A stretch of 32,000 bases of DNA from Candidatus Iainarchaeum sp. (GTDB lineage: Archaea; Iainarchaeota; Iainarchaeia; Iainarchaeales; DTGL01): NCBI GenBank assembly GCA_038736825.1, contig JAVYME010000002.1, positions 1 through 32,000 on the forward strand, read 5' to 3'. Shown one piece after another: positions 1,799-28,330 of this stretch. Below the pieces are notes generated by a model. It saw nothing but the letters and a program-made list of their open reading frames with translations, was not told the DNA's origin and did no database searches. The stretch's first letter is position 1. Every line of letters starts with the position of its first letter. The position numbers and the translations under genes were made by a program.

Positions 1799-1922
1799 AG
1801 ACAAATATATCACCTAAATCCAGTTATTGCTATGCAATTCGCAACACAAACCGTTTTTTCAACTACAGTTTTTAATCCAAACCCTGCGTTTTGCTTTTTT
1901 TCCTTTCCCCTCCAAATCCCTT

Positions 1923-2489
1923 ATGCTTAAAATCGCAATAACCGGCAGCCTTTGCGCTGGCAAAACCACAATAGCCCACTTATTGAAAAGAAAAGGCTTT
2001 ACAGTAATAAGCGTTGACGCAATAATAGCAAAATTATACAAAAAAAAATCCATTGCAAAAAAAATCAAGTCCTTGTTCGGTTCACTGAACAAAAAAACAA
2101 TAGCAGAACAAGCCTTTTCCAATCCAGTGAAAAGAAAAGCCCTAGAATCCATTTTGCACTCCCAAGCAAGAAAAATCCTATTGAAAAAACTCTCCTTGCT
2201 GGAAAAAGAACGCTTTGTTTTCGTGGAAGCCCCGCTATTGTTTGAATCTGGTTTCGAGCAAGACTTTGATTTTGTGGTTGCAGTCTGCGCTCACCCAAAA
2301 ACCCGCCTTTACAGAATGCTTTCCAAAGGCTTTTCAGAAAAAGAATTCCTTGAAAGAGAAAAAGCCCAATTGCCTGAAAAGGAAAAGGTTAAAAGAGCAA
2401 ACTTTGCAATTGATAACAGTGGCTCCATTGCAGAACTAAAACCACAAATTGAAAGACTATTATTAAAACTGGAGGCATTAAATGCCTGA
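1923..2489 (+). CDS. coaE: Dephospho-CoA kinase, bacterial type
   Basis: MLKIAITGSLCAGKTT P-loop at the N-terminus. Length and layout typical of CoaE (VISVDAI..., PLLFESG, AIDNSGS...L near the C-terminus). Start moved to ATG 1923 from the track's upstream start at 1827. 8-nt overlap with coaD. Confidence 0.8.
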   Translation: MLKIAITGSLCAGKTTIAHLLKRKGFTVISVDAIIAKLYKKKSIAKKIKSLFGSLNKKTIAEQAFSNPVKRKALESILHSQARKILLKKLSLLEKERFVFVEAPLLFESGFEQDFDFVVAVCAHPKTRLYRMLSKGFSEKEFLEREKAQLPEKEKVKRANFAIDNSGSIAELKPQIERLLLKLEALNA

Positions 2490-2973
2490 AAGAATTGCAG
2501 TTTACGCTGGAACCTTTGACCCAATAACCAACGGCCACATAGACATCATCAAGCGAGCCCTGAAAATGTTTGATTCAGTAATAATCGCCATAACCACAAA
2601 CCCGAAAAAAACCCCGCTCTTCTCTTTAGAGGAAAGAGTTGCAATGGCAAAAGCCTCAACCAAAAACCTTCAAGGCGTTTCAGTTGAATCCTTTTCCGGC
2701 CTGCTAGTGGACTACTTAAAGAAAAAAAAAGCCCACACCATCCTCCGCGGCTTGCGCGCTTTAAGCGATTTCGAATACGAATTCCAGCAAGCCCTAATGA
2801 ACCGCAAAATGCTTCCAGAAGCTGACACAGTGTTCATAATGACAAGCCCGAAATACTTTTATGTCAGCAGCTCAGTAGTAAAAGAAATCGCCTCCTTGGG
2901 CGGCTCCCTATGCGAATGCGTTCCCAAGCCAGTGGAAAAAGCCTTAAAAGCAAAATTTGCAAAAACCCATTAA
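2482..2973 (+). CDS. coaD: Phosphopantetheine adenylyltransferase, bacterial type
   Basis: AVYAGTFDPITNGHIDII (T/HxGH nucleotidyltransferase motif), RGLRALSDFEYE and SSSVVKEI are hallmark CoaD segments. 163 aa. Confidence 0.9.
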   Translation: MPERIAVYAGTFDPITNGHIDIIKRALKMFDSVIIAITTNPKKTPLFSLEERVAMAKASTKNLQGVSVESFSGLLVDYLKKKKAHTILRGLRALSDFEYEFQQALMNRKMLPEADTVFIMTSPKYFYVSSSVVKEIASLGGSLCECVPKPVEKALKAKFAKTH

Positions 2974-3015: not shown

Positions 3016-3110
3016 CAGAAAACCCCCATAAATAATGCTATATTGGTGCCATTGGCTGCCTTATGGTTGTTTTTGGCGCCAGTTCTTTGCAAAGAACGGA
3101 GGATGATGAA

Positions 3111-3557
3111 ATGAACAAAAAAGCACAATCTGCTTTAGAATACCTGATGACCTATGGTTGGGCCCTAATCGTGATCGCCATAGTCATTGGAATTTTGTGG
3201 TACGTAACATCAAGTGCAACAGGCGGAGTAACCTGCCAATCCAGAAGCAACAACTTCGTGGTAACGGCACAGGCAGTATCCGCCGGACCAGGGGGAGTTA
3301 GTCTAACACTGCGAAATGGAACAGGACAAACAGTCACAATGGTTAGTGCAACAGGAAGAGGAGATTTTAATGGCGCAGGTGTATTGAGCACTAATACTGT
3401 CGCCCCAAATCAAACAGTTAATATTACTGGGATAAATGCGCCTCCTAATGCAGCCACAAATTTGAGTAATACTTTTGACGATGGAAGAGTAGAGATTGTT
3501 GCCAGCATTGATACGCTTCCAGCAAATTTTGACGTCATCTGCACTGGAAAGGTTTAA
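3111..3557 (+). CDS. Archaeal type IV pilin (class III signal peptide, EppA/DUF361-like, Q at +1)
   Basis: MNKKA/QSALEYLMTYGWALIVIAIVIG: a basic stretch, A/G at -1, Q at +1, E at +5, then a hydrophobic helix. N-x-S/T sequons are present. One Cys follows the helix and one is near the C-terminus. Start set at ATG 3111 behind GGAGG rather than the track start 3063. Confidence 0.85.
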   Translation: MNKKAQSALEYLMTYGWALIVIAIVIGILWYVTSSATGGVTCQSRSNNFVVTAQAVSAGPGGVSLTLRNGTGQTVTMVSATGRGDFNGAGVLSTNTVAPNQTVNITGINAPPNAATNLSNTFDDGRVEIVASIDTLPANFDVICTGKV

Positions 3558-3665: not shown

Positions 3666-4094
3666 ATGAAGAAATTGCTTTTGGCTTTGGGGATAATTGT
3701 AATAATTTTCATTGTTTTTGTTTTTTTGTTAGTTTCTTTTGGAGTTTTTTGGTATGTGACTTCTAGTGCGACAGGCGGTGTAAACTGTAAGTCAGAAAGT
3801 CGTGGATTTGCTGTAAGAGCATTTGCTGTTTTAGCGGGCAGTAGAGGCGTTATGATTACTCTGCAAAATGGCACTGGCAGCGATGTAATTGTAAACTCTG
3901 TGATTGGATCTGGAGACTTTAGGGGCGTGGGAGAGGTTTCGGTTTCGCCGGTGGCTGCAAACCAAACCTTTAAGATTATGGGCATTGATGCCCCAGAGAG
4001 GGGCACCAAGTTTGGCAATGGCAGGGTTACAGTCAATGTCACGTCCAAAGATTTGACATATGACTTTGATGTTGTCTGTTCTGGTCAAGTTTAA
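3666..4094 (+). CDS. Pilin paralogue with a replaced N-terminus (no recognisable prepilin cleavage motif)
   Basis: Globular part aligns with 3111..3557: WYVTSSATGGV(T/N)C, NGTG, GDF.G.G, A.NQT, GRV, FDV(I/V)C.G.V-stop. The N-terminus is MKKLLLALGIIVIIFIVFVFLLV instead. GGGAGGG lies upstream. The in-frame upstream region has a stop at 3594 and no alternative start. Confidence 0.7.
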   Translation: MKKLLLALGIIVIIFIVFVFLLVSFGVFWYVTSSATGGVNCKSESRGFAVRAFAVLAGSRGVMITLQNGTGSDVIVNSVIGSGDFRGVGEVSVSPVAANQTFKIMGIDAPERGTKFGNGRVTVNVTSKDLTYDFDVVCSGQV

Positions 4095-4104
4095 ACCACT
4101 TGTC

Positions 4105-4125
4105 TTTTCCTTTTTTTTCTTTTTA
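4105..4125 (+). terminator. Oligo-T terminator candidate after pilin 2 (includes a T8 run at 4111-4118)
   Basis: T-runs directly after the stop at 4094. Confidence 0.35.
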
Positions 4126-4129
4126 TCTT

Positions 4130-5080
4130 TCTTTCACTTTTAAGTTTCAGTTTTAGGTCGTTTGGGGGGGCTGTTTGGGTTTTGTGTAACATTTTGCATT
4201 GCAGCCAAGGAAGTGTATTTTTTGTGTATTTGTAATTGTACTGTTTACACTAACCCTGCTGTCTGCTTGTTGTTTTTTTTTATTGTGTTACACTTAGTTT
4301 TACACTTGTTTTTGTATTGTATAAAGAGTTTTTTGTGTTTGTTTCACTGGCTTTACAGTGGATTGTACTATTGTGTATGATTGTGTATTTGGCTTTGCTT
4401 TGGCAGGGCTCTTTTTGTATTGCCTTGCCCTTTCTGGTTTCCTTTGTTTTTGGTTTTATTATGGATTGTGCCTTTCTTTGAGTTTTTATTGTAAGGTTTT
4501 ACACTTTTATTGTATTTTTTTGCAGTTTGTTGTGTATTTTTTACAGTTTTTTTTACACTTTTTACTGTAAGCTTTTGCACTTTTTACAGTTTTTTTGCAG
4601 GCTTTTTTTTGGGTTTTGTAATATTGTACAGTTCATGTGCTTTTTACTGTAAAGCAATACAGTATTGTTTCGTTTGGTTGCACTTTTAAGTGTAATTGTG
4701 TTTGTCTTTTGCAAAAGCTTTGCACTTTTAGTGTAATTTCCTACAATTGAATTGCAGGCTTTTTTTGCGTGCTTGCAGTTGCCTTTACACTAATTGTGCT
4801 TTTTATTGTAAAACAAGTAAAATTCAAGTGTAATTTCTGGCGGTTTTAGTGCAGAATTGTGTAATAGTTAGTGTTAGTTTTACTGTATGTTTGCACTTTT
4901 AGTGTTTTGTAATTGTATTTATTGTAAAGGCCAGTGCAATTATACTGTAAAGTGTTTTTTTGCTGATTTTTTTATTGTAAAATCAATGCAATATTTAGTG
5001 CAATAAAAGTGTAATCAGTACAATAGCGTTTACAGTTGTTTTTGCTGTTTTAGTGTAAGCCCGTGCATTTTTGTAGTGGT
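4130..5080. repeat. ORF-free block densely populated by the TT[AG]CA[CG]T motif family and its complement, in two orientation-biased arms
   Basis: Hand count: 16 forward and 10 reverse exact heptamers plus many one-off variants. Several 17-18 bp imperfect palindromes. No credible ORF. See the first finding. Confidence 0.6.
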
Positions 5081-5081
5081 T

Positions 5082-5414
5082 TTATTGTAATGATATTTTG
5101 ATTTCTTTTTTGTTTTCAGGAATTAGTTTTATTTTATTGCCCTTTTTTAAGCCGTAGTATTGGACTAAATCGGCTGGCAGGGTTATTGCTAGGCTTCGGC
5201 CTGCATTTATTATGGGTCTCTGGAAGACGAATTTTGTGTTTATTTGTTCGCTTAATTTCTGCATTTGTTTGCTTGTTGCAAATTTTTCTCCACATTTTGT
5301 GCATTCATAGTAGGGGGAGTTCTTTATTATGATGCGGCCTCCGTCCAATTGGAGTTCTTCGGATTTGAGTTCTGTTTTTCCGTTGCACAAATGGCATTTT
5401 ATCTCTGCTTCCAT
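5082..5414 (-). CDS. Antitoxin-like protein: N-terminal YgiT/MqsA-type zinc ribbon fused to a C-terminal AbrB/SpoVT/MazE-type DNA-binding domain
   Basis: CHLC...(23 aa)...CTKC zinc ribbon. C-terminal GRSLAITLPADLVQYYGLKKGNKIKL is a swapped-hairpin AbrB-like signature. 16-nt overlap with the upstream gene. Confidence 0.65.
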   Translation of the reverse strand: MEAEIKCHLCNGKTELKSEELQLDGGRIIIKNSPYYECTKCGEKFATSKQMQKLSEQINTKFVFQRPIINAGRSLAITLPADLVQYYGLKKGNKIKLIPENKKEIKISLQ

Positions 5415-5659
5415 TTTTTTGCCTCCTCTTCACTGGCTTCCCATAGGGTAAGCACATAGATTAATCCGGGTTTTTCGGCTTTCACTGCAGTTAATATGGT
5501 GTTTTGTATTCCAAAAATGGTTTTGCATTTGTCGTTCTCTTCTTTGATTTTGACTTCTTGTTTTTTTATTGCGAGTTCGATTTCACCGTAATTTAAGCCT
5601 AGCATTGCAGCTCTTTCTGCGAACATGTGCTTGGCGTGCAATGTCCATCTGACAATCAT
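5399..5659 (-). CDS. Small toxin-like protein (DUF4258-like)
   Basis: MIVRWTLHAKHMFAERAAMLGLNYGEIELAI resembles the H-A-x-x-R-M-x-E-R opening of DUF4258 proteins. About 86 aa and translationally overlapped with the Zn-ribbon/AbrB gene. The track start at 5677 is a TTG; ATG 5659 is preferred. Confidence 0.55.
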   Translation of the reverse strand: MIVRWTLHAKHMFAERAAMLGLNYGEIELAIKKQEVKIKEENDKCKTIFGIQNTILTAVKAEKPGLIYVLTLWEASEEEAKKWKQR

Positions 5660-5680
5660 AACTGGATTATGTTGCAAAGA

Positions 5681-5690
5681 AATTATAAAG
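5681..5690 (-). promoter_or_regulatory. TATA-box candidate (minus-strand CTTTATAATT) 21 nt upstream of ATG 5659, implying a leaderless or near-leaderless transcript
   Basis: AT-rich octamer at the distance expected for an archaeal TATA box relative to a leaderless start. Confidence 0.3.
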
Positions 5691-5726
5691 CAATACTTGA
5701 TTATAATTTGGTATTGCTATTTGCTT

Positions 5727-6734
5727 TTATAGGAATCCCATTTGTCCCATAAGGGTTCCCAGTGTGCTGCGCACGAAGAAGAATAAAAAGAAGTCTATGA
5801 AGAGGATAACCGGAATGTAGCGTATGCCGTTTATTTCGTTTCCTGTCTGGATTACGCCTATTGCTAGAGAGGAAAAAATTGCTGTGATTACGAGGGCGAT
5901 TTCTGCAAAAAACACTATGAATTCTTCGCTTACTTTTTCTTTTTGAGTGTCTGTTGTGAGCATTGTTATTCTGCCAGCCACTCCAATGCTTGTGTTTTCT
6001 GGAAGGTTTGATGGACCGTATTGTGTGGAGCGCTCGCTTACAATGCCTACAATGTAGGAGGAAATCCCAAACAATATTGGGGCGCCAAATGCTGCTGTAA
6101 TGAATATCATCATTATGTACATGCTAATGTTGGCGTTGATTTCTTCTTTGATTGCGTTTTCTTCTCTTATGCTGTCACTTAACTGGAATAACAAGTCTGT
6201 TATTTGGCCTCCGCTTCTTATGCCGTGAATGAGCAGGCTTATGGTTCTTTCCAGCAATGGCGAGTTTATTTTTTTGGGTATTTCGCTTAATGCAACCTCT
6301 GTTCTCTGCCCTGTAATGATTTTTCTGCTTGCCACTTTGAATTCTCGGCTTAATGGCCCGAATTCGTCTCTTGCTGATTCAAATAGTGCTCTTTCTGTGG
6401 TCATGCCGGTTTTAATGTTTGAGGCTATGAGTTCTAGTGCGTCTGGAAGGAATTTTTCTGCAATTTCTGCTTTTTTTAGTGAAACTATTTTTAGCCAGTA
6501 TAAGGCTATGCCTGCAAAAAGCATTGTTGCTATTGGAAAGGAAAGATATCCGGGAAAACCGTATAAGAGGTAGGCGGCAATTGAAGCAATTATGCCCAAG
6601 CCAACTGAAAATATTACTAGAAAGCCTGCAAAGCGGGTTTCACTCATTTCTATGTCTACATATGCTAAGCTTTTGGACAGCCTTTTTCTCAGGCTTTTTG
6701 GCAGTATGGCTCCAATTCTTTCATAAAATGACAT
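5727..6734 (-). CDS. Pilus platform membrane protein, T2SS-F domain (TadC/EpdK/FlaJ-like half)
   Basis: 335 aa. Multiple TM helices flank a cytoplasmic helical domain (LPDALELIASNIKTGMTTERAL...), typical of GspF/TadC-type proteins. Last gene of the pilus operon. Confidence 0.85.
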   Translation of the reverse strand: MSFYERIGAILPKSLRKRLSKSLAYVDIEMSETRFAGFLVIFSVGLGIIASIAAYLLYGFPGYLSFPIATMLFAGIALYWLKIVSLKKAEIAEKFLPDALELIASNIKTGMTTERALFESARDEFGPLSREFKVASRKIITGQRTEVALSEIPKKINSPLLERTISLLIHGIRSGGQITDLLFQLSDSIREENAIKEEINANISMYIMMIFITAAFGAPILFGISSYIVGIVSERSTQYGPSNLPENTSIGVAGRITMLTTDTQKEKVSEEFIVFFAEIALVITAIFSSLAIGVIQTGNEINGIRYIPVILFIDFFLFFFVRSTLGTLMGQMGFL

Positions 6735-14989: not shown

Positions 14990-15117
14990 CTTTTTTACCT
15001 ATATTATTATTTAATGGCTGGATTAAAAATTGTTTTCCTTTTTTTGGTTTTTTTTTTAATAAAAATGTGTTTAAACAGGGAATAAATATGTTTTAAGGCT
15101 TTTTCAAGCCATTTTTT

Positions 15118-24944: not shown

Positions 24945-27851
24945 TTAAGGGCAGGTTAGTTCTTTAGTGTAGGAATTGTTGTTTTTGTTCAATTCATATA
25001 TTGTGCTTCCACTGTCCGCTGTTATCTTTATCGTGTAGGTTGTTCCAGCACTGCAAGTCCAGTAAGACATATTCCTGTCCATTTCAGCCCCTATTGAAAT
25101 GCTGCTCATTGCATCATTGTCAGAGGCAGTTGCAGATTCGCCGACAAAAAGGCTGTTATAGAATATTTTGCTTGTTATGTCTGCATTTCCCTGGTTTTTG
25201 ATTGTGTATGCAATGGTTCTGTTGTTGTTGAACCATATGTTTGTTATTGTTAGGTCTGGTGCTGTTTCTGGTGTTGGGCATGTGAGTGTTTTTGTGTAGG
25301 AGTTGTTGTTTTCGTTTGATTCAAAGATTCGCAATAGCGAGTCTGCTGTTATTTTTAGGGTGTAGGTTGTTCCAGCACTGCAAGTCCAGTAAGACATATT
25401 CCTGTCTACTGCTGCACTTGCCTCAATATCTTGAATTGTATCAAAGTCAGTGGCAGAAGCGGCTTCATTCAAGAAAAGCTCGTTGTATATGGGAGTGCCG
25501 GTTATAGAAGTACTTCCTTCATTTGCAATCCTATATCCCACTGTTCCGTTGTTGTTGAACCATATGTTTGTTATTGTTAGGTCTGGTGCTGTTGTTGGTG
25601 TTGGGCAGGTTAGTTCTTTAGTGTAGGAGTTGTTATTTTCGTTTGATTCAAATATTTGCTCTCCCGCATCAGCAATTATGTTGACATCATATGTTGTTCC
25701 GGGATTGCAACTCCAGTATGCAAGATTCCTGTCAAGGGACATTCCAGAAGCAAGATCATACATTATTTCGCCATCTGACGGGTTTGTGGCTCCACCCAAA
25801 AAAACGCTGTTATAGAATATTTTGCTTGTTATATCCGTATTTCCCTGGTTTTTGATTGTGTATCCTATTGTGCCGTTGTTGTTGAACCATATGTTTGTTA
25901 TTGTTAGGTCTGGTGCTGTTGTTGGTGTTGGGCAGGTTAGTTCTTTAGTGTAGGAGTTGTTGTTTTCGTTTGATTCAAAGATGTTGCCTCCAGTATCAGC
26001 ACTTACCTTTATCGTGTAGGTTGTTCCGGGACTACAAGCCCAATAAGACATATTCCTGTCCTGTGTATCCCCTGCGAAAATATCATACATTGCATCATAT
26101 CCTGATATTACCGGGCTTCCATTCACAAACAAGTCATTGTAAAAAAGCCTGCTTGTTATGTTCGCGTTTCCCTGGTTTTTGATTGTGTATCCTATTGTGC
26201 CGTTGTTGTTGAACCATATGTTTGTTATTGTTAGGTCTGGTGCTGTTGTTGGTGTTGGGCAGGTGAGTGTTTTTGTGTAGGAGTTGTTGTTTTCGTTTGA
26301 TTCGTATATTTGTGATAGTGAGTCTGCGGTTATTTTTAGCGTGTATGTTGTGCCAGGAGTGCAAATCCAGTAAGACATGTTTCTGTCTTCTGTTGCACCA
26401 ACAGCCAAGCTGTACATTGTATCAAAGTCCATATAGGGCACGGAATTGTTTATGAACAAGTCATTGTAAAATTCAGTGGTTTTTATTTCTGCGTTTCCCT
26501 GGTTTTTGATTGTGTATCCTATTGTGCCGTTGTTGTTGAACCATATGTTTGTTATTGTTAGGTCTGGTGCTGTTGTTGGTGTTGGGCAGGTGAGTGTTTT
26601 TGTGTAGGAGTTGTTGTTTTCGTTTGATTCGTATATTTGTGATAGTGAGTCTGCGGTTATTTTTAGCGTGTATGTTGTTCCCGGGTAGCAGGTCCAGTAT
26701 GAAATGTTTCTGTCGGCTGTTGCGCCTGCTGTGAGGCTTGTCATTGCGTCGTAGCCTGAGAGTTCTAGCGAGTTGTTTTTGAATAGATCATTATAGAATG
26801 TTTTTGCAATATTTGCGTCTCCCTGGTTTTTGATTGTGTATCCTACTGTTCCGTTGTTGTTGAACCACATATTTGTTATTATTAAGTCTGGCTTTGTTGT
26901 TGGGATAGGGCAAGTAATTGTTTCTGTATAATCATTGTTGTTTTCGTTTGATTCTATCAAGTAATCAGACATGTCTGCGCTTACTTTGAGAGTATATGTT
27001 GTTCCGGGATAGCAGGTCCAGTTTGGCATTATCCTGTCTTGGCTTGCGCCTGCTGCAAGATTTGCCATTTCATCCAAATCCACATAATATTGATTGTATA
27101 ATGCATTATAGAAGGTTGTATTGGTTATTGAAGTATTTCCCTGGTTTTTTATCCTATAGCCGATTGTGGTGTCATCGTTTGCCCAAATGTCTTGGATTAT
27201 CAGGTCAATTGTTGCTGTCGGTGTTGGTGTGGGGGTTATTGGTGTTGGGGTGGGTGTTCGTGTTGGAGTAGGGGTTGGTGTTGGCGGCGGCGGAGTGGGG
27301 GTTCTCGGTGGCGGAGTTGGTGTTGCTTGTGCTCCACTGCTTCCCCCTCCAGATGGCGGGCGTGCTGTCGGCGTTGGCGTTGGTATTGCTGTAGGTCTTG
27401 GTGGCGGAGTTTGTGTTCTGATTGGAGTCGGGCTTGGAGTTGGTGTTGGGGTTGTGGGAACCATTGTCGGTGTAGGGGTTGGTTTTGGTGTTCTTGCAGG
27501 GTTTGCTGTTGGCGTGGGGGTTATGGAACTGCCTTCCTCTTCCAAGCATTCCAATGCCAGGTTTTTTCCGTCAAAATAGAGTGTGAGCTTTGAATTTGTT
27601 GCTGTAAAGGTTGCCTTCCAATAGTCTTTTTTTGGAATTCCCCTGCATTTTGGCGGAGCATTATATTTAAGGTTTTCATAATTGTTTTCGCTGAAATAGC
27701 CAGCCCAGTAAGTTGCATTCGGGTTTTTTTCCAAGAATTCCTTTGCTTCTTTTAATTGCAAAACTTTTTCTTTTGAGAGTTGTGCTTGCTGGTTGCAACC
27801 TGAAAGAAGAAGAATTAAAAAAATGAAGGCAAAAAAAATTCCAAGTTTCAT
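24945..27851 (-). CDS. Surface lipoprotein: lipobox signal, small N-terminal domain, Pro/Thr-rich linker, seven tandem CARDB-like repeats
   Basis: [19 protein letters not shown] lipobox. About 100 aa of PT-rich linker. Seven ~109-aa units ([25 protein letters not shown]...[15 protein letters not shown]). Start set at ATG 27851; the longer track ORF (to 27935) would overlap the upstream gene. Confidence 0.85.
24948..27209 (-). repeat. Intragenic tandem array, period 327 bp (one 324), 7 units, with stretches of ~180 bp identical between units
   Basis: The landmark AACCATATGTTTGTTATTGTTAGGTCTGG recurs at 25231, 25558, 25885, 26212 and 26539, with a variant at 26863. 26171-26351 equals 26498-26678 by eye. 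Confidence 0.9.
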
Positions 27852-27859
27852 TAAAACGC

Positions 27860-28330
27860 CTACCCGATGTTTATTTGAACTCTTTTTGAAACATCCATTC
27901 CGCCGGGAATGTCCAGTTTTGCTTCCAGATACCATCTTGGCTGGGATGCAAATGAACCCCCGAGAAATGCAGCGGCTTTTGCCAATTCTCCTATAACGCC
28001 ATCTGGTGCTTGCTGGCTTTGCAAAATGTTGTTTGGAACCTTTATTTCAAACTCGTATTCGCCACTTGAATATTCTTTTTCTCCATCCAAGGGAAGTTCA
28101 AAATTGAAAATAATTTGGTTTCTTTTTTCAGTGCGAGGGCCACTGTTATAATAACTGGTTCTGGTTATTGTTCTTTCGCCCCACAACCTGGCTTTAATGC
28201 CTCTTGCTTTTGTTGGTTTGTTCATGGAGAGAACAATGCGGCCTTTTATTGTGTCGCCAGGCGAAAAATTGAATTTTTCAAGTGTTAATTCGATTTTGCC
28301 CTTTCCAAGTCCAAAAAGGAATACAAACAT
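27860..28330 (-). CDS. Arrestin-N/Spo0M-like beta-sandwich protein
   Basis: [34 protein letters not shown]...[11 protein letters not shown] follows the Spo0M/arrestin-like opening pattern. 8 nt upstream of the CARDB gene. TATA-like TTAAATTATA in the 28343-28374 spacer. Confidence 0.5.

What the first reader, a model, noticed from the sequence alone, without database searches (positions are those of the whole stretch)
4130..5080. 1 kb ORF-free block built from an oriented, helically phased TTACA(C/G)T / TTGCA(C/G)T motif family
About 1 kb lies between the stop of the second pilin gene (4094) and the stop of the antitoxin-like gene (5082), with no credible ORF. The only track ORFs are three composition-driven ones at 4162-4580, and nothing of 60 aa or more runs from 4580 to 5080. 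By hand I count 16 exact TT[AG]CA[CG]T heptamers on the + strand. Their starts are 4245, 4288, 4300, 4353, 4499, 4520, 4541, 4553, 4575, 4584, 4678, 4720, 4773, 4785, 4891 and 5030. I count 10 exact copies of the complement A[CG]TG[TC]AA, at 4564, 4646, 4689, 4730, 4827, 4933, 4944, 4997, 5008 and 5052. There are also many one-off variants (ATTGTAA x5, AGTGTAT, ACTGTAT, GTACAGT). Orientation is partitioned: 4245-4560 holds 8 forward and 0 reverse copies, and every reverse copy lies at or right of 4564. Spacings recur and sit near multiples of ~10.5-11 bp. Forward spacings are 43, 12, 53, 146, 21, 21, 12, 22, 9; reverse spacings are 82, 43, 41, 97, 106, 11, 53, 11, 44. Sites would therefore fall on one face of the helix. 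Where both orientations meet they form imperfect palindromes TTGCACT-TTT(A)-AGTGTAA at 4678-4695 and 4720-4736, with a degenerate copy at 4891-4907. There is also a perfect TTTAC-N-GTAAA dyad at 4643-4653 (10 of 11 at 4561-4570). A perfect 12-bp palindrome CTTTTGCAAAAG sits at 4706-4717 and a G7 run at 4164-4170. The left arm is very T-rich on the + strand, with many T5-T9 runs. Two arms of phased short repeats in opposite orientation is the architecture of protein-wrapped DNA. Examples are replication origins (archaeal ORB/mini-ORB dyads of the TTCCA-N-TGGAA type with a G-string, flanking an unwinding element), plasmid iterons, and partition centromeres (two arms of 11-bp repeats in parC of plasmid R1). 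No orc1/cdc6, rep or par gene is in the window, so the function is open. The adjacent gene (5082-5414) encodes an AbrB-domain DNA-binding protein.
Basis: partly seen in the sequence, partly recalled or inferred. Interest (0 to 1): 0.8.

Follow-up and report, generated by a model that had tools for sequence, protein, structure and literature searches.

The report
Helically phased repeat array, function unknown
A roughly 1 kb gene-free stretch in a tiny DPANN archaeon is a real array of a 7-base motif, with every copy on one face of bent DNA; it looks like a protein-docking array, but it is a recent insertion, not the chromosome's replication origin, and its job is unknown.

Summary
There are 16 forward and 10 reverse exact TT[AG]CA[CG]T heptamers at the stated coordinates, against 1.9 and 0.5 in dinucleotide shuffles. 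That is 27 per kb, against 0.7-1.3 per kb elsewhere. All 26 sites share one phase of a 10.6-bp cycle over 807 bp (Rayleigh R 0.77, P<2e-4). The forward-left, reverse-right split is significant (P 0.003). Spacers are T-tracts on the + strand only, and the most strongly bent 147 bp predicted in the 32-kb window lies at about 4440-4600.

Two relatives with the same gene order (CoaE-PPAT-pilin, converging on T2SSF-T2SSF-T2SSE) have 67-bp and 238-bp gaps here. The block and the adjacent toxin-antitoxin-like pair are therefore a lineage-specific 1.6-kb insertion. Only the closest relative shares it, and its contigs break inside motif DNA.

The origin reading fails: the ORB core (TTCC...GAA), an unwinding element, an orc1/cdc6 neighbour and conserved position are all missing. 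The AbrB gene belongs to a pair conserved across Diapherotrites, with its own, different operator.

My best reading is a binding-site array for an unidentified oligomerising DNA-binding protein that wraps curved DNA, possibly derived from a mobile element. Its function is unproven.

The parts
3666..4094 (+). Second pilin-like gene (142 aa). It forms the left flank and reads into the block.
   Evidence: ORF. Homologues P0073 and P0074 sit at the same place in relatives. Relatives L314 and L310 have one such gene, and the window has two (3063-3557 and 3666-4094).
4095..4135 (+). T-rich tail downstream of the pilin gene, shared with relatives. It is probably the original oligo-T terminator and marks the left edge of the insertion.
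   Evidence: The alignment with L314 and L310 stays alignable to about this point.
4136..5081 (.). Non-coding block specific to this lineage. It carries the heptamer array and T-tract spacers.
   Evidence: Absent from the syntenic gaps of L314 (67 bp) and L310 (238 bp). It contains no credible ORF. There is no Rfam hit even at E<=1 and no tRNA.
4164..4170 (+). G7 run.
   Evidence: Read. It is a single copy with no adjacent ORB-like element.
4245..4590 (+). Left arm: 10 forward-oriented exact heptamers (TTRCAST) and 1 reverse copy.
   Evidence: The phase at period 10.6 bp is 4.2-7.0.
4440..4610 (.). Strongest predicted intrinsic bend in the whole 32-kb window. It overlaps the 21-bp tandem repeat TTTTTACAGTTTTTTTTGCAC (4497-4599).
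   Evidence: The end-to-end/contour ratio is 0.50-0.55 against a median of 0.94 in two wedge models. TRF finds periods of 21 and 55 bp.
4643..4736 (.). Central zone where the two orientations meet. It holds TTTACTGTAAA (4643-4653), TACTGTA-N6-TACAGTA (4645-4664), TTGCACT-TTTA-AGTGTAA (4678-4695), CTTTTGCAAAAG (4706-4717) and TTGCACT-TTT-AGTGTAA (4720-4736).
4827..5058 (-). Right arm: 6 reverse-oriented exact heptamers (ASTGYAA) and 2 forward copies, plus ATTGTAA variants.
   Evidence: R is 0.94 at a period of 10.65 bp for the right half, defined as sites at or right of 4650.
5082..5414 (-). 110-aa antitoxin-like protein with a YgiT-type zinc ribbon and an AbrB/MazE domain. It was inserted together with the block but is not tied to it elsewhere.
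   Evidence: Pfam PF04014 and TIGR03831. There are 71 homologues at 52-83% identity, and the 27 aligned share 24 invariant columns. In the related loci that can be read past the gene, no large non-coding block follows it.
5399..5659 (-). 86-aa partner gene (probable toxin, no family match) that overlaps the start of the AbrB gene.
   Evidence: tblastn finds it upstream of the AbrB gene in 28 related loci. It is called as an 86-aa gene in L315 and L316. There is no Pfam or NCBIfam hit.
5683..5726 (-). Promoter and operator of the pair: a TATA-like TTTATAA (5683-5689, - strand) and the inverted repeat AGCAATAC (5689-5696) / GTATTGCT (5711-5718). This is the right edge of the insertion.
   Evidence: The element GGTATTAYYTGATTATTAAATGATATTGCTTTATAA is conserved upstream of the pair in relatives. 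Alignment to L314 resumes at the T2SSF stop.
5727..6734 (-). T2SSF-family pilus assembly gene, forming the right flank. In relatives it converges directly on the pilin gene.
   Evidence: Pfam PF00482. Synteny is seen in L314, L310 and L001.

Best explanation
The block is a DNA-level element: about 0.9 kb of intrinsically curved DNA. It carries at least 26 exact sites, or about 57 if one mismatch is allowed, for a sequence-specific DNA-binding protein that is not yet identified.

Each unit is one helical turn long. It consists of a rigid T-tract followed by a 7-bp site (TTRCAST or ASTGYAA) with a flexible CA/TG core. Because every site lies on the same face, and half a turn from the T-tract centres, the major grooves of the sites line the concave side of the bend. 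A protein that oligomerises site to site would therefore be wrapped by the DNA, or would coat one face as a filament. Plasmid iterons and partition centromeres are organised in the same way.

The element is not ancestral to this locus. It arrived, or grew, together with a toxin-antitoxin-like pair between the pilin gene and the pilus assembly operon, in the common ancestor of this organism and its nearest known relative. I think the most likely source is a mobile-element maintenance module (iteron or centromere type) whose partner gene lies elsewhere or has been lost.

Shown: the motif family, phasing, orientation gradient, strand-specific T-tracts, predicted curvature, insertion status, and retention of motif and spacing in the sister lineage.

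Inferred: protein binding, wrapping, and a mobile-element origin.
For: - Enrichment: 16+10 exact sites against 1.9+0.5 in shuffles, and 27 per kb against 0.7-1.3 per kb elsewhere.
- Phasing: all sites lie within +-2.3 bp of one phase of a 10.6-bp cycle across 76 turns, P<2e-4.
- Units are otherwise barely alike. The best 60-bp self-match is 70% and the mean lag identity is at most 0.39 against 0.335 expected. Recent duplication therefore cannot explain the phase. With this much divergence, indels should have scrambled the phase unless it is selected.
- Both orientations are used, with a left-forward, right-reverse gradient (P 0.0026) and palindromic pairs in the middle.
- Phase-folded composition shows a T maximum and, half a turn away, the core.
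- The most curved 147 bp of the window lies at 4440-4600.
- Sister lineage (82% identity for the adjacent T2SSF protein, 83% for AbrB): the 46 bp after the AbrB stop cannot be aligned with the window, yet they hold TTACACT, TTGCAGT, ACTGTAA and ATTGTAT at spacings of 11, 10 and 11 bp.
- Insertion together with a toxin-antitoxin-like pair.
- Analogy: the same heptamer forms two-orientation iteron arrays next to Prim-Pol/DUF3987/HTH replication genes in phage contigs.
Against: - No candidate binder, rep, par or integrase gene lies next to the block.
- There is no target-site duplication or terminal repeat that defines a mobile unit. The only shared 10-mer lies inside the toxin gene.
- The toxin-antitoxin-like pair occurs in 28 related loci. 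No large non-coding block follows it in those that can be read past it, so its presence here may be a coincidence.
- The strict + strand bias of the T-tracts is not required by a symmetric protein array. It matches the third-codon-position skew of neighbouring - strand genes, which suggests that transcription or mutation bias also shapes the block.
- The element is seen in only two MAGs, and only 46 bp of the second copy is visible.
- The phage arrays were found by searching for this very motif, so they are an analogy and not evidence of common descent.
Confidence: 0.45

Rival explanations
1. The block is the chromosomal replication origin, or one of several origins. In this reading the heptamers act as divergent mini-ORBs bound by Orc1/Cdc6, arranged in two arms around an unwinding zone.
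For: There are two arms of opposite orientation, many phased short repeats and a G-run. The heptamer differs at one position from TTCCAGT, the start of the Pyrococcus mini-ORB TTCCAGTGGAACT. One copy, TTACAGTGGATTG at 4353, resembles a full mini-ORB. Cumulative GC skew has a minimum near 3 kb.
Against: - The conserved ORB cores 'TTCC' and 'GAA' are missing from the family.
- There is no A/T-only run longer than 12 bp, and the stability minima are no lower than at ordinary intergenic sites.
- No orc1/cdc6 gene lies in the 32 kb.
- Genes converge on the block rather than diverge from it.
- Third-position skews follow gene strand, so the skew minimum is a gene-orientation effect.
- The block is absent at the same site in two syntenic relatives.
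Confidence: 0.05
2. The block is a structural element with no dedicated sequence-specific binder. Phased T-tracts and flexible TG/CA steps would make a curved, easily wrapped stretch that positions histones or another general chromatin protein, or pins supercoils. It would also serve as a one-way oligo-T terminator zone between the highly expressed pilin genes and the converging operon.
For: There are 23 T>=5 tracts on the + strand and none on the - strand. TTT/TTTT spectral power peaks at 10.5 bp and is the highest in the window. Predicted curvature is the strongest in the window. The block sits between convergent transcription units. From general knowledge, archaeal RNA polymerase terminates at oligo-T, and curved DNA is common between convergent genes.
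Against: Curvature or termination alone does not need a specific heptamer enriched 8-20 fold and used in both orientations. Relatives with the same genes manage with 67 bp. T-tract periodicity alone is only modestly above the window's background, 16.3 against a 99th percentile of 14.4.
Confidence: 0.17
3. The block is a functionless, decaying minisatellite. It would have expanded by slippage from the T-rich terminator tail as a 10/11/21-bp unit such as TTTTTACAGT and then drifted.
For: TRF detects 21-bp and 55-bp periods. The T/G-rich composition resembles the neighbouring pilin-pilin spacer. The syntenic gap in L310 also holds a short AT-rich repeat with a 9-bp period, and contigs break at these junctions in two relatives. 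The block occurs in one small lineage only.
Against: Units have diverged almost to background identity, yet all sites keep one phase over 807 bp. The reverse-oriented copies and palindromes cannot arise by simple slippage. The motif and the 10-11 bp spacing persist in a sister lineage whose sequence can no longer be aligned. One kb of junk is unusual where intergenic gaps are usually under 200 bp.
Confidence: 0.2
4. The block is transcribed and acts as RNA. It could be a long A-rich 3' extension of the toxin-antitoxin operon on the - strand, possibly running antisense into the pilin genes, or a U-rich multi-hairpin RNA on the + strand. The repeated heptamers would serve as protein-binding or pairing sites.
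For: The - strand has no oligo-T terminator across the whole block. The + strand skew equals the third-position skew of - strand genes, as if the block were transcribed leftwards. Segment 4480-4779 folds better than shuffles, z -4.2 on + and -2.5 on -.
Against: A 10.6-nt phase that holds over 800 nt has a meaning for a double helix but not for an RNA. The other half folds no better than chance, z -1.8 and -1.3. The excess pairing follows trivially from a motif present in both orientations. There is no Rfam match at E<=1. No relatives are available for a covariation test.
Confidence: 0.1

Closest known systems
Partition centromeres made of phased short repeats, such as parC of plasmid R1 (two sets of five 11-bp repeats bound cooperatively by ParR) and sopC of F (43-bp repeats). 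This comparison is from my own knowledge.
   Same: Many short sites spaced at one helical turn, all on one face, able to carry a cooperative protein coat that bends or wraps the DNA. A 42-43 bp superperiod is also visible here.
   Different: No parA/parM or adaptor gene is adjacent. The array is three to eight times longer. Orientation is mixed rather than uniform. The host is a chromosome of a DPANN archaeon.
Iteron-type phage origins found here. They have AGTGTAAA(C) and ACTGTAAAC copies in both orientations flanking an A/T stretch, next to a 750-aa gene encoding Prim-Pol, DUF3987 and a C-terminal HTH (L110, L149, L174, L163, L211 and others).
   Same: The heptamer is the same, both orientations are used, and the arms are arranged around a centre.
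   Different: The phage arrays are about 300 bp with 8-14 copies, a 40-60 bp pure A/T core and the initiator gene alongside. The archaeal block has none of these, and it has T-tract spacers. The phage arrays were retrieved by searching for the motif, so the likeness is not evidence of homology.
Archaeal oriC with ORB/mini-ORB repeats bound by Orc1/Cdc6.
   Same: A long intergenic region with many short repeats in two orientations. The first seven bases are one mismatch from the Pyrococcus mini-ORB TTCCAGT....
   Different: The conserved TTCC and GAA cores, the unwinding element, the orc1/cdc6 neighbour and positional conservation are all missing.
Intrinsically curved DNA built from phased A/T-tracts, such as kinetoplast minicircle bends and nucleosome or archaeal-histone positioning sequences. 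This comparison is from my own knowledge.
   Same: T-tracts recur at about 10.5 bp, alternating with flexible TG/CA-containing segments half a turn away. Strong curvature is predicted.
   Different: Those sequences need no specific heptamer. Here a defined 7-mer is enriched far beyond what composition predicts.
Tandem winged-helix sites with a 7-bp core and a 4-bp A/T spacer, such as pho boxes of PhoB and the TT(A/T/C)ACA repeats of Bacillus PhoP at an 11-bp period. This comparison is from my own knowledge.
   Same: The unit structure is a 7-bp conserved core plus an A/T spacer of about 4 bp, making one helical turn. TTTACA occurs 9 times.
   Different: Those are 2-4 units in a promoter, whereas this array has dozens of units between gene ends. 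No response regulator is implied.

Membership tests
Archaeal ORB/mini-ORB replication origin | Repeats carry the conserved 'TTCC' and 'GAA' core motifs (PMC1904270). | tested here: not met
   The family is TT[AG]CA[CG]T followed mostly by T. Position 3 is A or G in every exact copy, and there is no GAA half-site.
Archaeal ORB/mini-ORB replication origin | An A/T-rich unwinding element lies between inverted ORBs. | tested here: not met
   The block contributes none of the window's 12 longest A/T-only runs, which are all 14 bp or longer. The 60-bp stability minima in the block (-1.10 to -1.12 kcal/mol per step) are matched by ordinary intergenic sites at 15000, 19962 and 28341.
Archaeal ORB/mini-ORB replication origin | An orc1/cdc6 gene lies next to the origin. 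| tested here: not met
   Pfam scans of 30 ORFs across the window found no AAA+/Cdc6 protein. The rest of the 70.8-kb contig could not be fetched.
Archaeal ORB/mini-ORB replication origin | The origin keeps the same location in related genomes with conserved gene order. | tested here: not met
   L314 has a 67-bp gap and L310 a 238-bp gap at the syntenic junction.
Archaeal ORB/mini-ORB replication origin | A replication-related skew inflection or a read-coverage peak marks the origin. | tested here: inconclusive
   The cumulative GC skew minimum near 3 kb coincides with a switch of gene strand, and third-position skews follow gene strand. Coverage cannot be tested with these tools.
Iteron-type plasmid or phage origin | Multiple repeats lie in helical phase (about 11 or 22 bp). 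| tested here: met
   The phase period is 10.6 bp and TRF finds a 21-bp period.
Iteron-type plasmid or phage origin | An initiator (rep) gene is adjacent and an A/T-rich unwinding element is present. | tested here: not met
   There is no rep-like gene and no unwinding element.
Partition centromere (parC or sopC type) | An array of phased repeats able to carry a cooperative protein coat. | tested here: met
Partition centromere (parC or sopC type) | An adjacent operon encodes an NTPase (ParA/ParM) and a centromere-binding protein. | tested here: not met
   There is none in the window. A ParA/CbiA-family gene lies about 9 kb upstream of PPAT in relatives L312 and L314. That position is outside this window and not adjacent to the block.
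Intrinsically curved DNA (phased A/T-tracts) | A/T-tracts of 4 or more bases recur at the helical repeat. | tested here: met
   There are 42 T>=4 tracts, and TTT/TTTT power peaks at 10.5 bp, the highest in the window.
Intrinsically curved DNA (phased A/T-tracts) | Macroscopic curvature, shown by anomalous gel mobility, cyclisation or microscopy. | not testable with these tools
   Only a model is available: the end-to-end/contour ratio is 0.50-0.55 at 4440-4600. The wedge parameters were recalled from memory.
Operator array of the neighbouring AbrB-type antitoxin | The sites resemble the protein's own conserved operator, and the array travels with the gene. | tested here: not met
   The operator consensus is GGTATTA...GATATTGC, not TTRCAST. 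No large non-coding block follows the gene in the related loci that can be read past it.
Known structured RNA family | A match to an Rfam covariance model. | tested here: not met
   There is no hit at gathering score or at E<=1.

The most novel reading that the evidence does not exclude
The block is a working chromosomal docking array in a DPANN archaeon. In this reading, a sequence-specific protein encoded elsewhere polymerises over about 76 helical turns of curved DNA to form a segregation or chromosome-organising complex, or an Orc-independent replication-control complex, captured from a mobile element. It would be the first sequence-defined element of this kind in DPANN, and unusually long for any prokaryote.
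Probability: 0.2. Interest if true: 0.75.

Novelty: new variant of a known kind. Interest (0 to 1): 0.5.

Why it matters
DPANN archaea have tiny, tightly packed genomes, and almost nothing is known about how they organise, segregate or replicate their DNA. A 1-kb non-coding array whose sites keep one helical phase over 76 turns, while the rest of the sequence has drifted, is a strong sign of a selected nucleoprotein structure. It also gives a concrete bait, TTRCAST at 10.6-bp spacing, for finding the protein. If the binder turns out to be a partition, replication-control or chromatin protein, the element would be a rare experimental handle on DPANN chromosome biology. If instead it is a relic of a plasmid or virus, it would point to a mobile-element type not yet described for this group. 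The study also shows why the tempting origin-of-replication reading should not be adopted from architecture alone.

Tried and rejected
1. Fetching the rest of the source contig failed. Exact-product look-ups for two window proteins and for P0001 found nothing.
2. Related loci found through the AbrB protein (34 loci): no comparable non-coding block follows the gene in those readable past it. Only L001 shows motif DNA, and its contig ends after 46 bp. A second, independent assembly (Logan) ends at the same base.
3. BLAST of the block against plasmid and phage collections gave no match.
4. Pattern scans of viral and metagenome contigs returned simple tandem repeats, phage iteron origins and palindromic elements. 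None shares a protein with the window at tblastn E<=1e-5, apart from one weak glycosyltransferase match (25% identity, L320).
5. Decayed coding sequence or a pilin cassette: tblastx and blastn of the block against the rest of the window gave only low-complexity noise. ORF translations are composition artefacts.
6. Replication skew: third-position skews follow gene strand only.
7. Unwinding element: none found.
8. Recent segmental duplication as the cause of phasing: self-similarity is too low.
9. Mobile-element borders: there is no target-site duplication. The 17-nt inverted repeat at 4235-4251 and 5008-5024 is made of the motif itself.
10. AbrB operator resemblance: rejected.
11. A CTGT-N8-ACAG match to the bacterial LexA box at 4647-4662 is taken as a coincidence, because archaea lack LexA.
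12. A literature search found no description of such arrays in Diapherotrites or other DPANN archaea.
Full report
**Source and setting.** The window comes from a Candidatus Diapherotrites/Iainarchaeum (DPANN) metagenome-assembled genome. The window's 110-aa protein is identical to an NCBI entry from a 70.8-kb contig.

- The block lies inside a type IV pilus-like locus.
- On its left are CoaE, PPAT and two pilin-like genes on the + strand, ending at 4094.
- On its right, all on the - strand, are a 110-aa YgiT-zinc-ribbon/AbrB protein (5082-5414) and an 86-aa partner (5399-5659). Beyond them lie two T2SSF genes, a T2SSE ATPase, a double winged-helix protein, a VWA protein and small pilin-like genes.
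- Other intergenic gaps in the window are mostly under 200 bp.

- Sites: 16 forward TT[AG]CA[CG]T and 10 reverse copies lie at exactly the listed positions.
- Details: the dyads, the 12-bp palindrome and the G7 run are where stated.
- Coding: the ORFs inside the block translate to low-complexity strings. There is no tRNA and no Rfam match, even at E<=1.
- Shuffles: dinucleotide-preserving shuffles of the block give 1.87+-1.30 and 0.51+-0.71 copies.
- Background: the remaining 31 kb hold 40 copies, all within genes. In 353 kb of related Diapherotrites DNA the density is 0.68 per kb, with never more than 6 in 950 bp.
- Unbiased discovery: k-mer enumeration against shuffles recovers the same family. 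AGTGTAA has z 10.9, TATTGTA 8.1 and ACTGTAA 6.8, and TGTAA occurs 27 times against 6.2 expected.
- Relaxed count: allowing one mismatch gives 57 sites.

**Phasing, orientation and shape.**

- All 26 exact sites start at 2.4-7.0 of a 10.6-bp cycle. Rayleigh R is 0.77 for all sites, 0.84 for the left half and 0.94 for the right half. None of 5000 random placements reached this, even when the best period between 9 and 13 bp was chosen for each.
- Forward copies lie to the left and reverse copies to the right (permutation P 0.0026).
- T-tracts fill the spacers, and they are always on the + strand whichever way the heptamer points. There are 42 T>=4 against 5 A>=4 tracts, and 23 T>=5 against none.
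- Folding the block on the 10.6-bp period shows a T maximum, with the A of the CA core about half a turn later.
- From this I infer that the major grooves of the cores face the same side as the minor grooves of the T-tracts. That is the concave side of the predicted bend, and it is the classical arrangement of DNA wrapped round a protein.
- Two wedge models place the most curved 147 bp of the whole window at about 4440-4600, with an end-to-end/contour ratio of 0.50-0.55 against a median of 0.94. A second bend lies at about 4750-4900. The model parameters were recalled from memory, so only the ranking should be trusted.
- T-tract periodicity alone is the highest in the window but only modestly above background, 16.3 against a 99th percentile of 14.4. 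The heptamer, not the T-tract, is what is exceptional.

**Is the phase inherited from recent duplication?** TRF reports 21-bp and 55-bp periods at 4497-4609, but self-similarity is weak.

- The best 60-bp diagonal is 70% identical.
- The best whole-block lag identity is 0.39, against 0.335 expected from composition.
- The favoured lags are mostly near multiples of 10.6 bp, for example 42, 137, 159, 253 and 339.

The units have therefore diverged nearly to background while keeping register over 76 turns. With that much substitution, neutral indels should have destroyed the register. I take this as inferred evidence that phase and motif are under selection.

**Comparative evidence.** The AbrB protein has many homologues at 52-83% identity.

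*The gene pair.*
- tblastn finds the 86-aa gene directly upstream of the AbrB gene in 28 related loci.
- A conserved promoter/operator, GGTATTAYYTGATTATTAAATGATATTGCTTTATAA, precedes the pair.
- In the loci that can be read past the AbrB gene, it is not followed by any comparable non-coding block; in most, another gene comes next.
- The pair is thus a self-contained toxin-antitoxin-like module that moves between contexts, and its operator is unlike the heptamer.

*The syntenic site.*
- L314 (PPAT 78% identical) has CoaE-PPAT-pilin converging on T2SSF-T2SSF-T2SSE and the same downstream genes, with only 67 bp between the stops.
- L310 (pilin 52% identical) has a 238-bp gap holding an AT-rich repeat with a 9-bp period and no heptamers.
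- Alignments place the edges of the extra DNA at about 4135 and at 5727.
- The block and the toxin-antitoxin-like pair are therefore a lineage-specific insertion of about 1.6 kb.

*The closest relative.*
- MAG JAPLVS01 (T2SSF 82% and AbrB 83% identical) has T2SSF, the partner gene and AbrB in the same order.
- Right after the AbrB stop come 46 bp that cannot be aligned with the window, yet they contain TTACACT, TTGCAGT, ACTGTAA and ATTGTAT at spacings of 11, 10 and 11 bp.
- Both the NCBI and the Logan assemblies end at that same base.
- The contig that carries its PPAT ends inside the first pilin gene.
- The element is thus shared by two lineages and is hard to assemble in one of them.

**Tests of the origin reading.**

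- ORB and mini-ORB repeats share invariant 'TTCC' and 'GAA' cores (PMC1904270). The family here has A or G at the third position and no GAA half.
- No A/T-only run in the block exceeds 12 bp, and the duplex-stability minima are matched by ordinary intergenic sites.
- No Orc1/Cdc6, Rep or Par protein is encoded in the 32 kb.
- Genes converge on the block.
- The cumulative GC-skew minimum near 3 kb is explained by gene orientation. Third-codon-position GC and AT skews follow the coding strand gene by gene.
- Together with the absence of the block from syntenic relatives, these results make a primary chromosomal origin unlikely. I put it at about 0.05.

**RNA reading.**

- Segment 4480-4779 folds better than shuffles, z -4.2 on + and -2.5 on -. 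Segment 4780-5079 does not, z -1.8 and -1.3.
- A motif present in both orientations gives such an excess by itself, and a 10.6-nt register has no meaning for an RNA.
- Even so, the - strand has no oligo-T tract across the whole block. The + strand skew equals the third-position skew of - strand genes.
- Leftward read-through from the toxin-antitoxin operon, possibly antisense into the pilin genes, therefore cannot be excluded.

**Similar arrays elsewhere.** Pattern scans for three phased heptamers returned mostly chance hits and simple tandem repeats, plus two recurrent classes.

- Phage contigs carry AGTGTAAA(C) and ACTGTAAAC copies in both orientations around a 40-60 bp pure A/T stretch. These arrays lie next to a 750-aa gene encoding Prim-Pol, DUF3987 and a C-terminal HTH, and in some contigs next to a DnaA_C-like 122-aa gene. 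They are textbook iteron origins.
- Nested palindromes of about 500 bp carry GCTTACAGT at an 11-bp period, in contigs of about 47% G+C.
- None of the retrieved loci shares a protein with the window, apart from one weak glycosyltransferase match in a viral contig. They were selected by the motif itself.
- They show that arrays of this heptamer do serve as initiator-binding iterons elsewhere. They do not show common descent.

**Conclusion.** The finding is real and statistically robust.

- The best-supported reading (about 0.45) is a DNA-level array of sites for an unidentified oligomerising, sequence-specific DNA-binding protein. The protein would be wrapped by, or would coat one face of, about 0.9 kb of curved DNA.
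- The array entered this locus together with a toxin-antitoxin-like module and may derive from a mobile element's iteron or centromere module.
- Rivals are a decaying minisatellite (0.2), a purely structural curved-DNA and one-way terminator buffer (0.17), an RNA role (0.1) and a chromosomal origin (0.05).
- The function remains unproven. The decisive data are read-depth and long-read analysis, a genome-wide search for further arrays, protein pull-down, and strand-specific transcript mapping.

Noticed in passing
L110 690-970; L149 6600-6900; L174 5200-5500; L163, L211, L139, L209, L203, L206: A recurrent class of IMG/VR phage contigs has textbook iteron origins. Copies of AGTGTAAA(C)/GTTTACACT and ACTGTAAAC lie in both orientations around a 40-60 bp pure A/T stretch. 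They sit directly beside a 750-aa gene encoding Prim-Pol, DUF3987 and a C-terminal HTH, and in L149 and L209 beside a 122-aa protein with a DnaA C-terminal-like HTH.
   Followed up: partly
L232 3740-4170; L248 250-720; L229 640-1100; L244 90-620; L260 1270-1560: Metagenome contigs of about 47% G+C carry nested palindromes of about 500 bp. They are built from GCTTACAGT repeats at an 11-bp period in two inverted arms. Neither the kind of element nor the host was identified.
   Followed up: no
window 5082-5726 and 28 of the related loci L001-L034: The 86-aa gene and the 110-aa YgiT-zinc-ribbon/AbrB gene form a pair conserved across Diapherotrites at 43-83% identity in varied genomic contexts. A conserved promoter/operator, GGTATTAYYTGATTATTAAATGATATTGCTTTATAA, precedes it. 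This conservation is unusually high for a toxin-antitoxin-like module, and the small protein matches no Pfam or NCBIfam family.
   Followed up: partly
window 3063-3557 and 3666-4094: The window has two pilin-like genes in tandem where relatives L314 and L310 have one. The sister MAG's contig breaks inside its first pilin gene, as expected if it also has paralogous copies.
   Followed up: partly
L310 10500-10625; L311 10470-10541: The syntenic pilin/T2SSF junction of a more distant relative holds an AT-rich repeat (TTTAAAT and ATTTAAT types) with a 9-bp period. The L311 contig ends inside it. Repeats at this convergent junction therefore recur, but with a different motif and period.
   Followed up: partly
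window 4647-4662: CTGTAAAGCAATACAG matches the bacterial LexA-box pattern CTGT-N8-ACAG inside the TACTGTA-N6-TACAGTA dyad. I take it as a coincidence in an archaeon.
   Followed up: no
L018 1-90: Three tandem copies of a 27-bp unit (GGTATTGTAGAAAGTGACTGGCAACCAT) lie just upstream of the toxin-antitoxin-like pair in one relative.
   Followed up: no
window 24945-27935: A 996-aa protein with seven CARDB domains contains long internal DNA repeats. An identical 37-mer occurs at 25035-25071 and at 25362-25398.
   Followed up: no
window 1827-2973: The CoaE (PF01121) and PPAT genes look like the bacterial type. Beyond Diapherotrites, the PPAT's best matches are bacterial (Thermovenabulum, Nitrospirae, Desulfobacteraceae; 57-61% identity), which suggests an old transfer of CoA-synthesis genes.
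   Followed up: no
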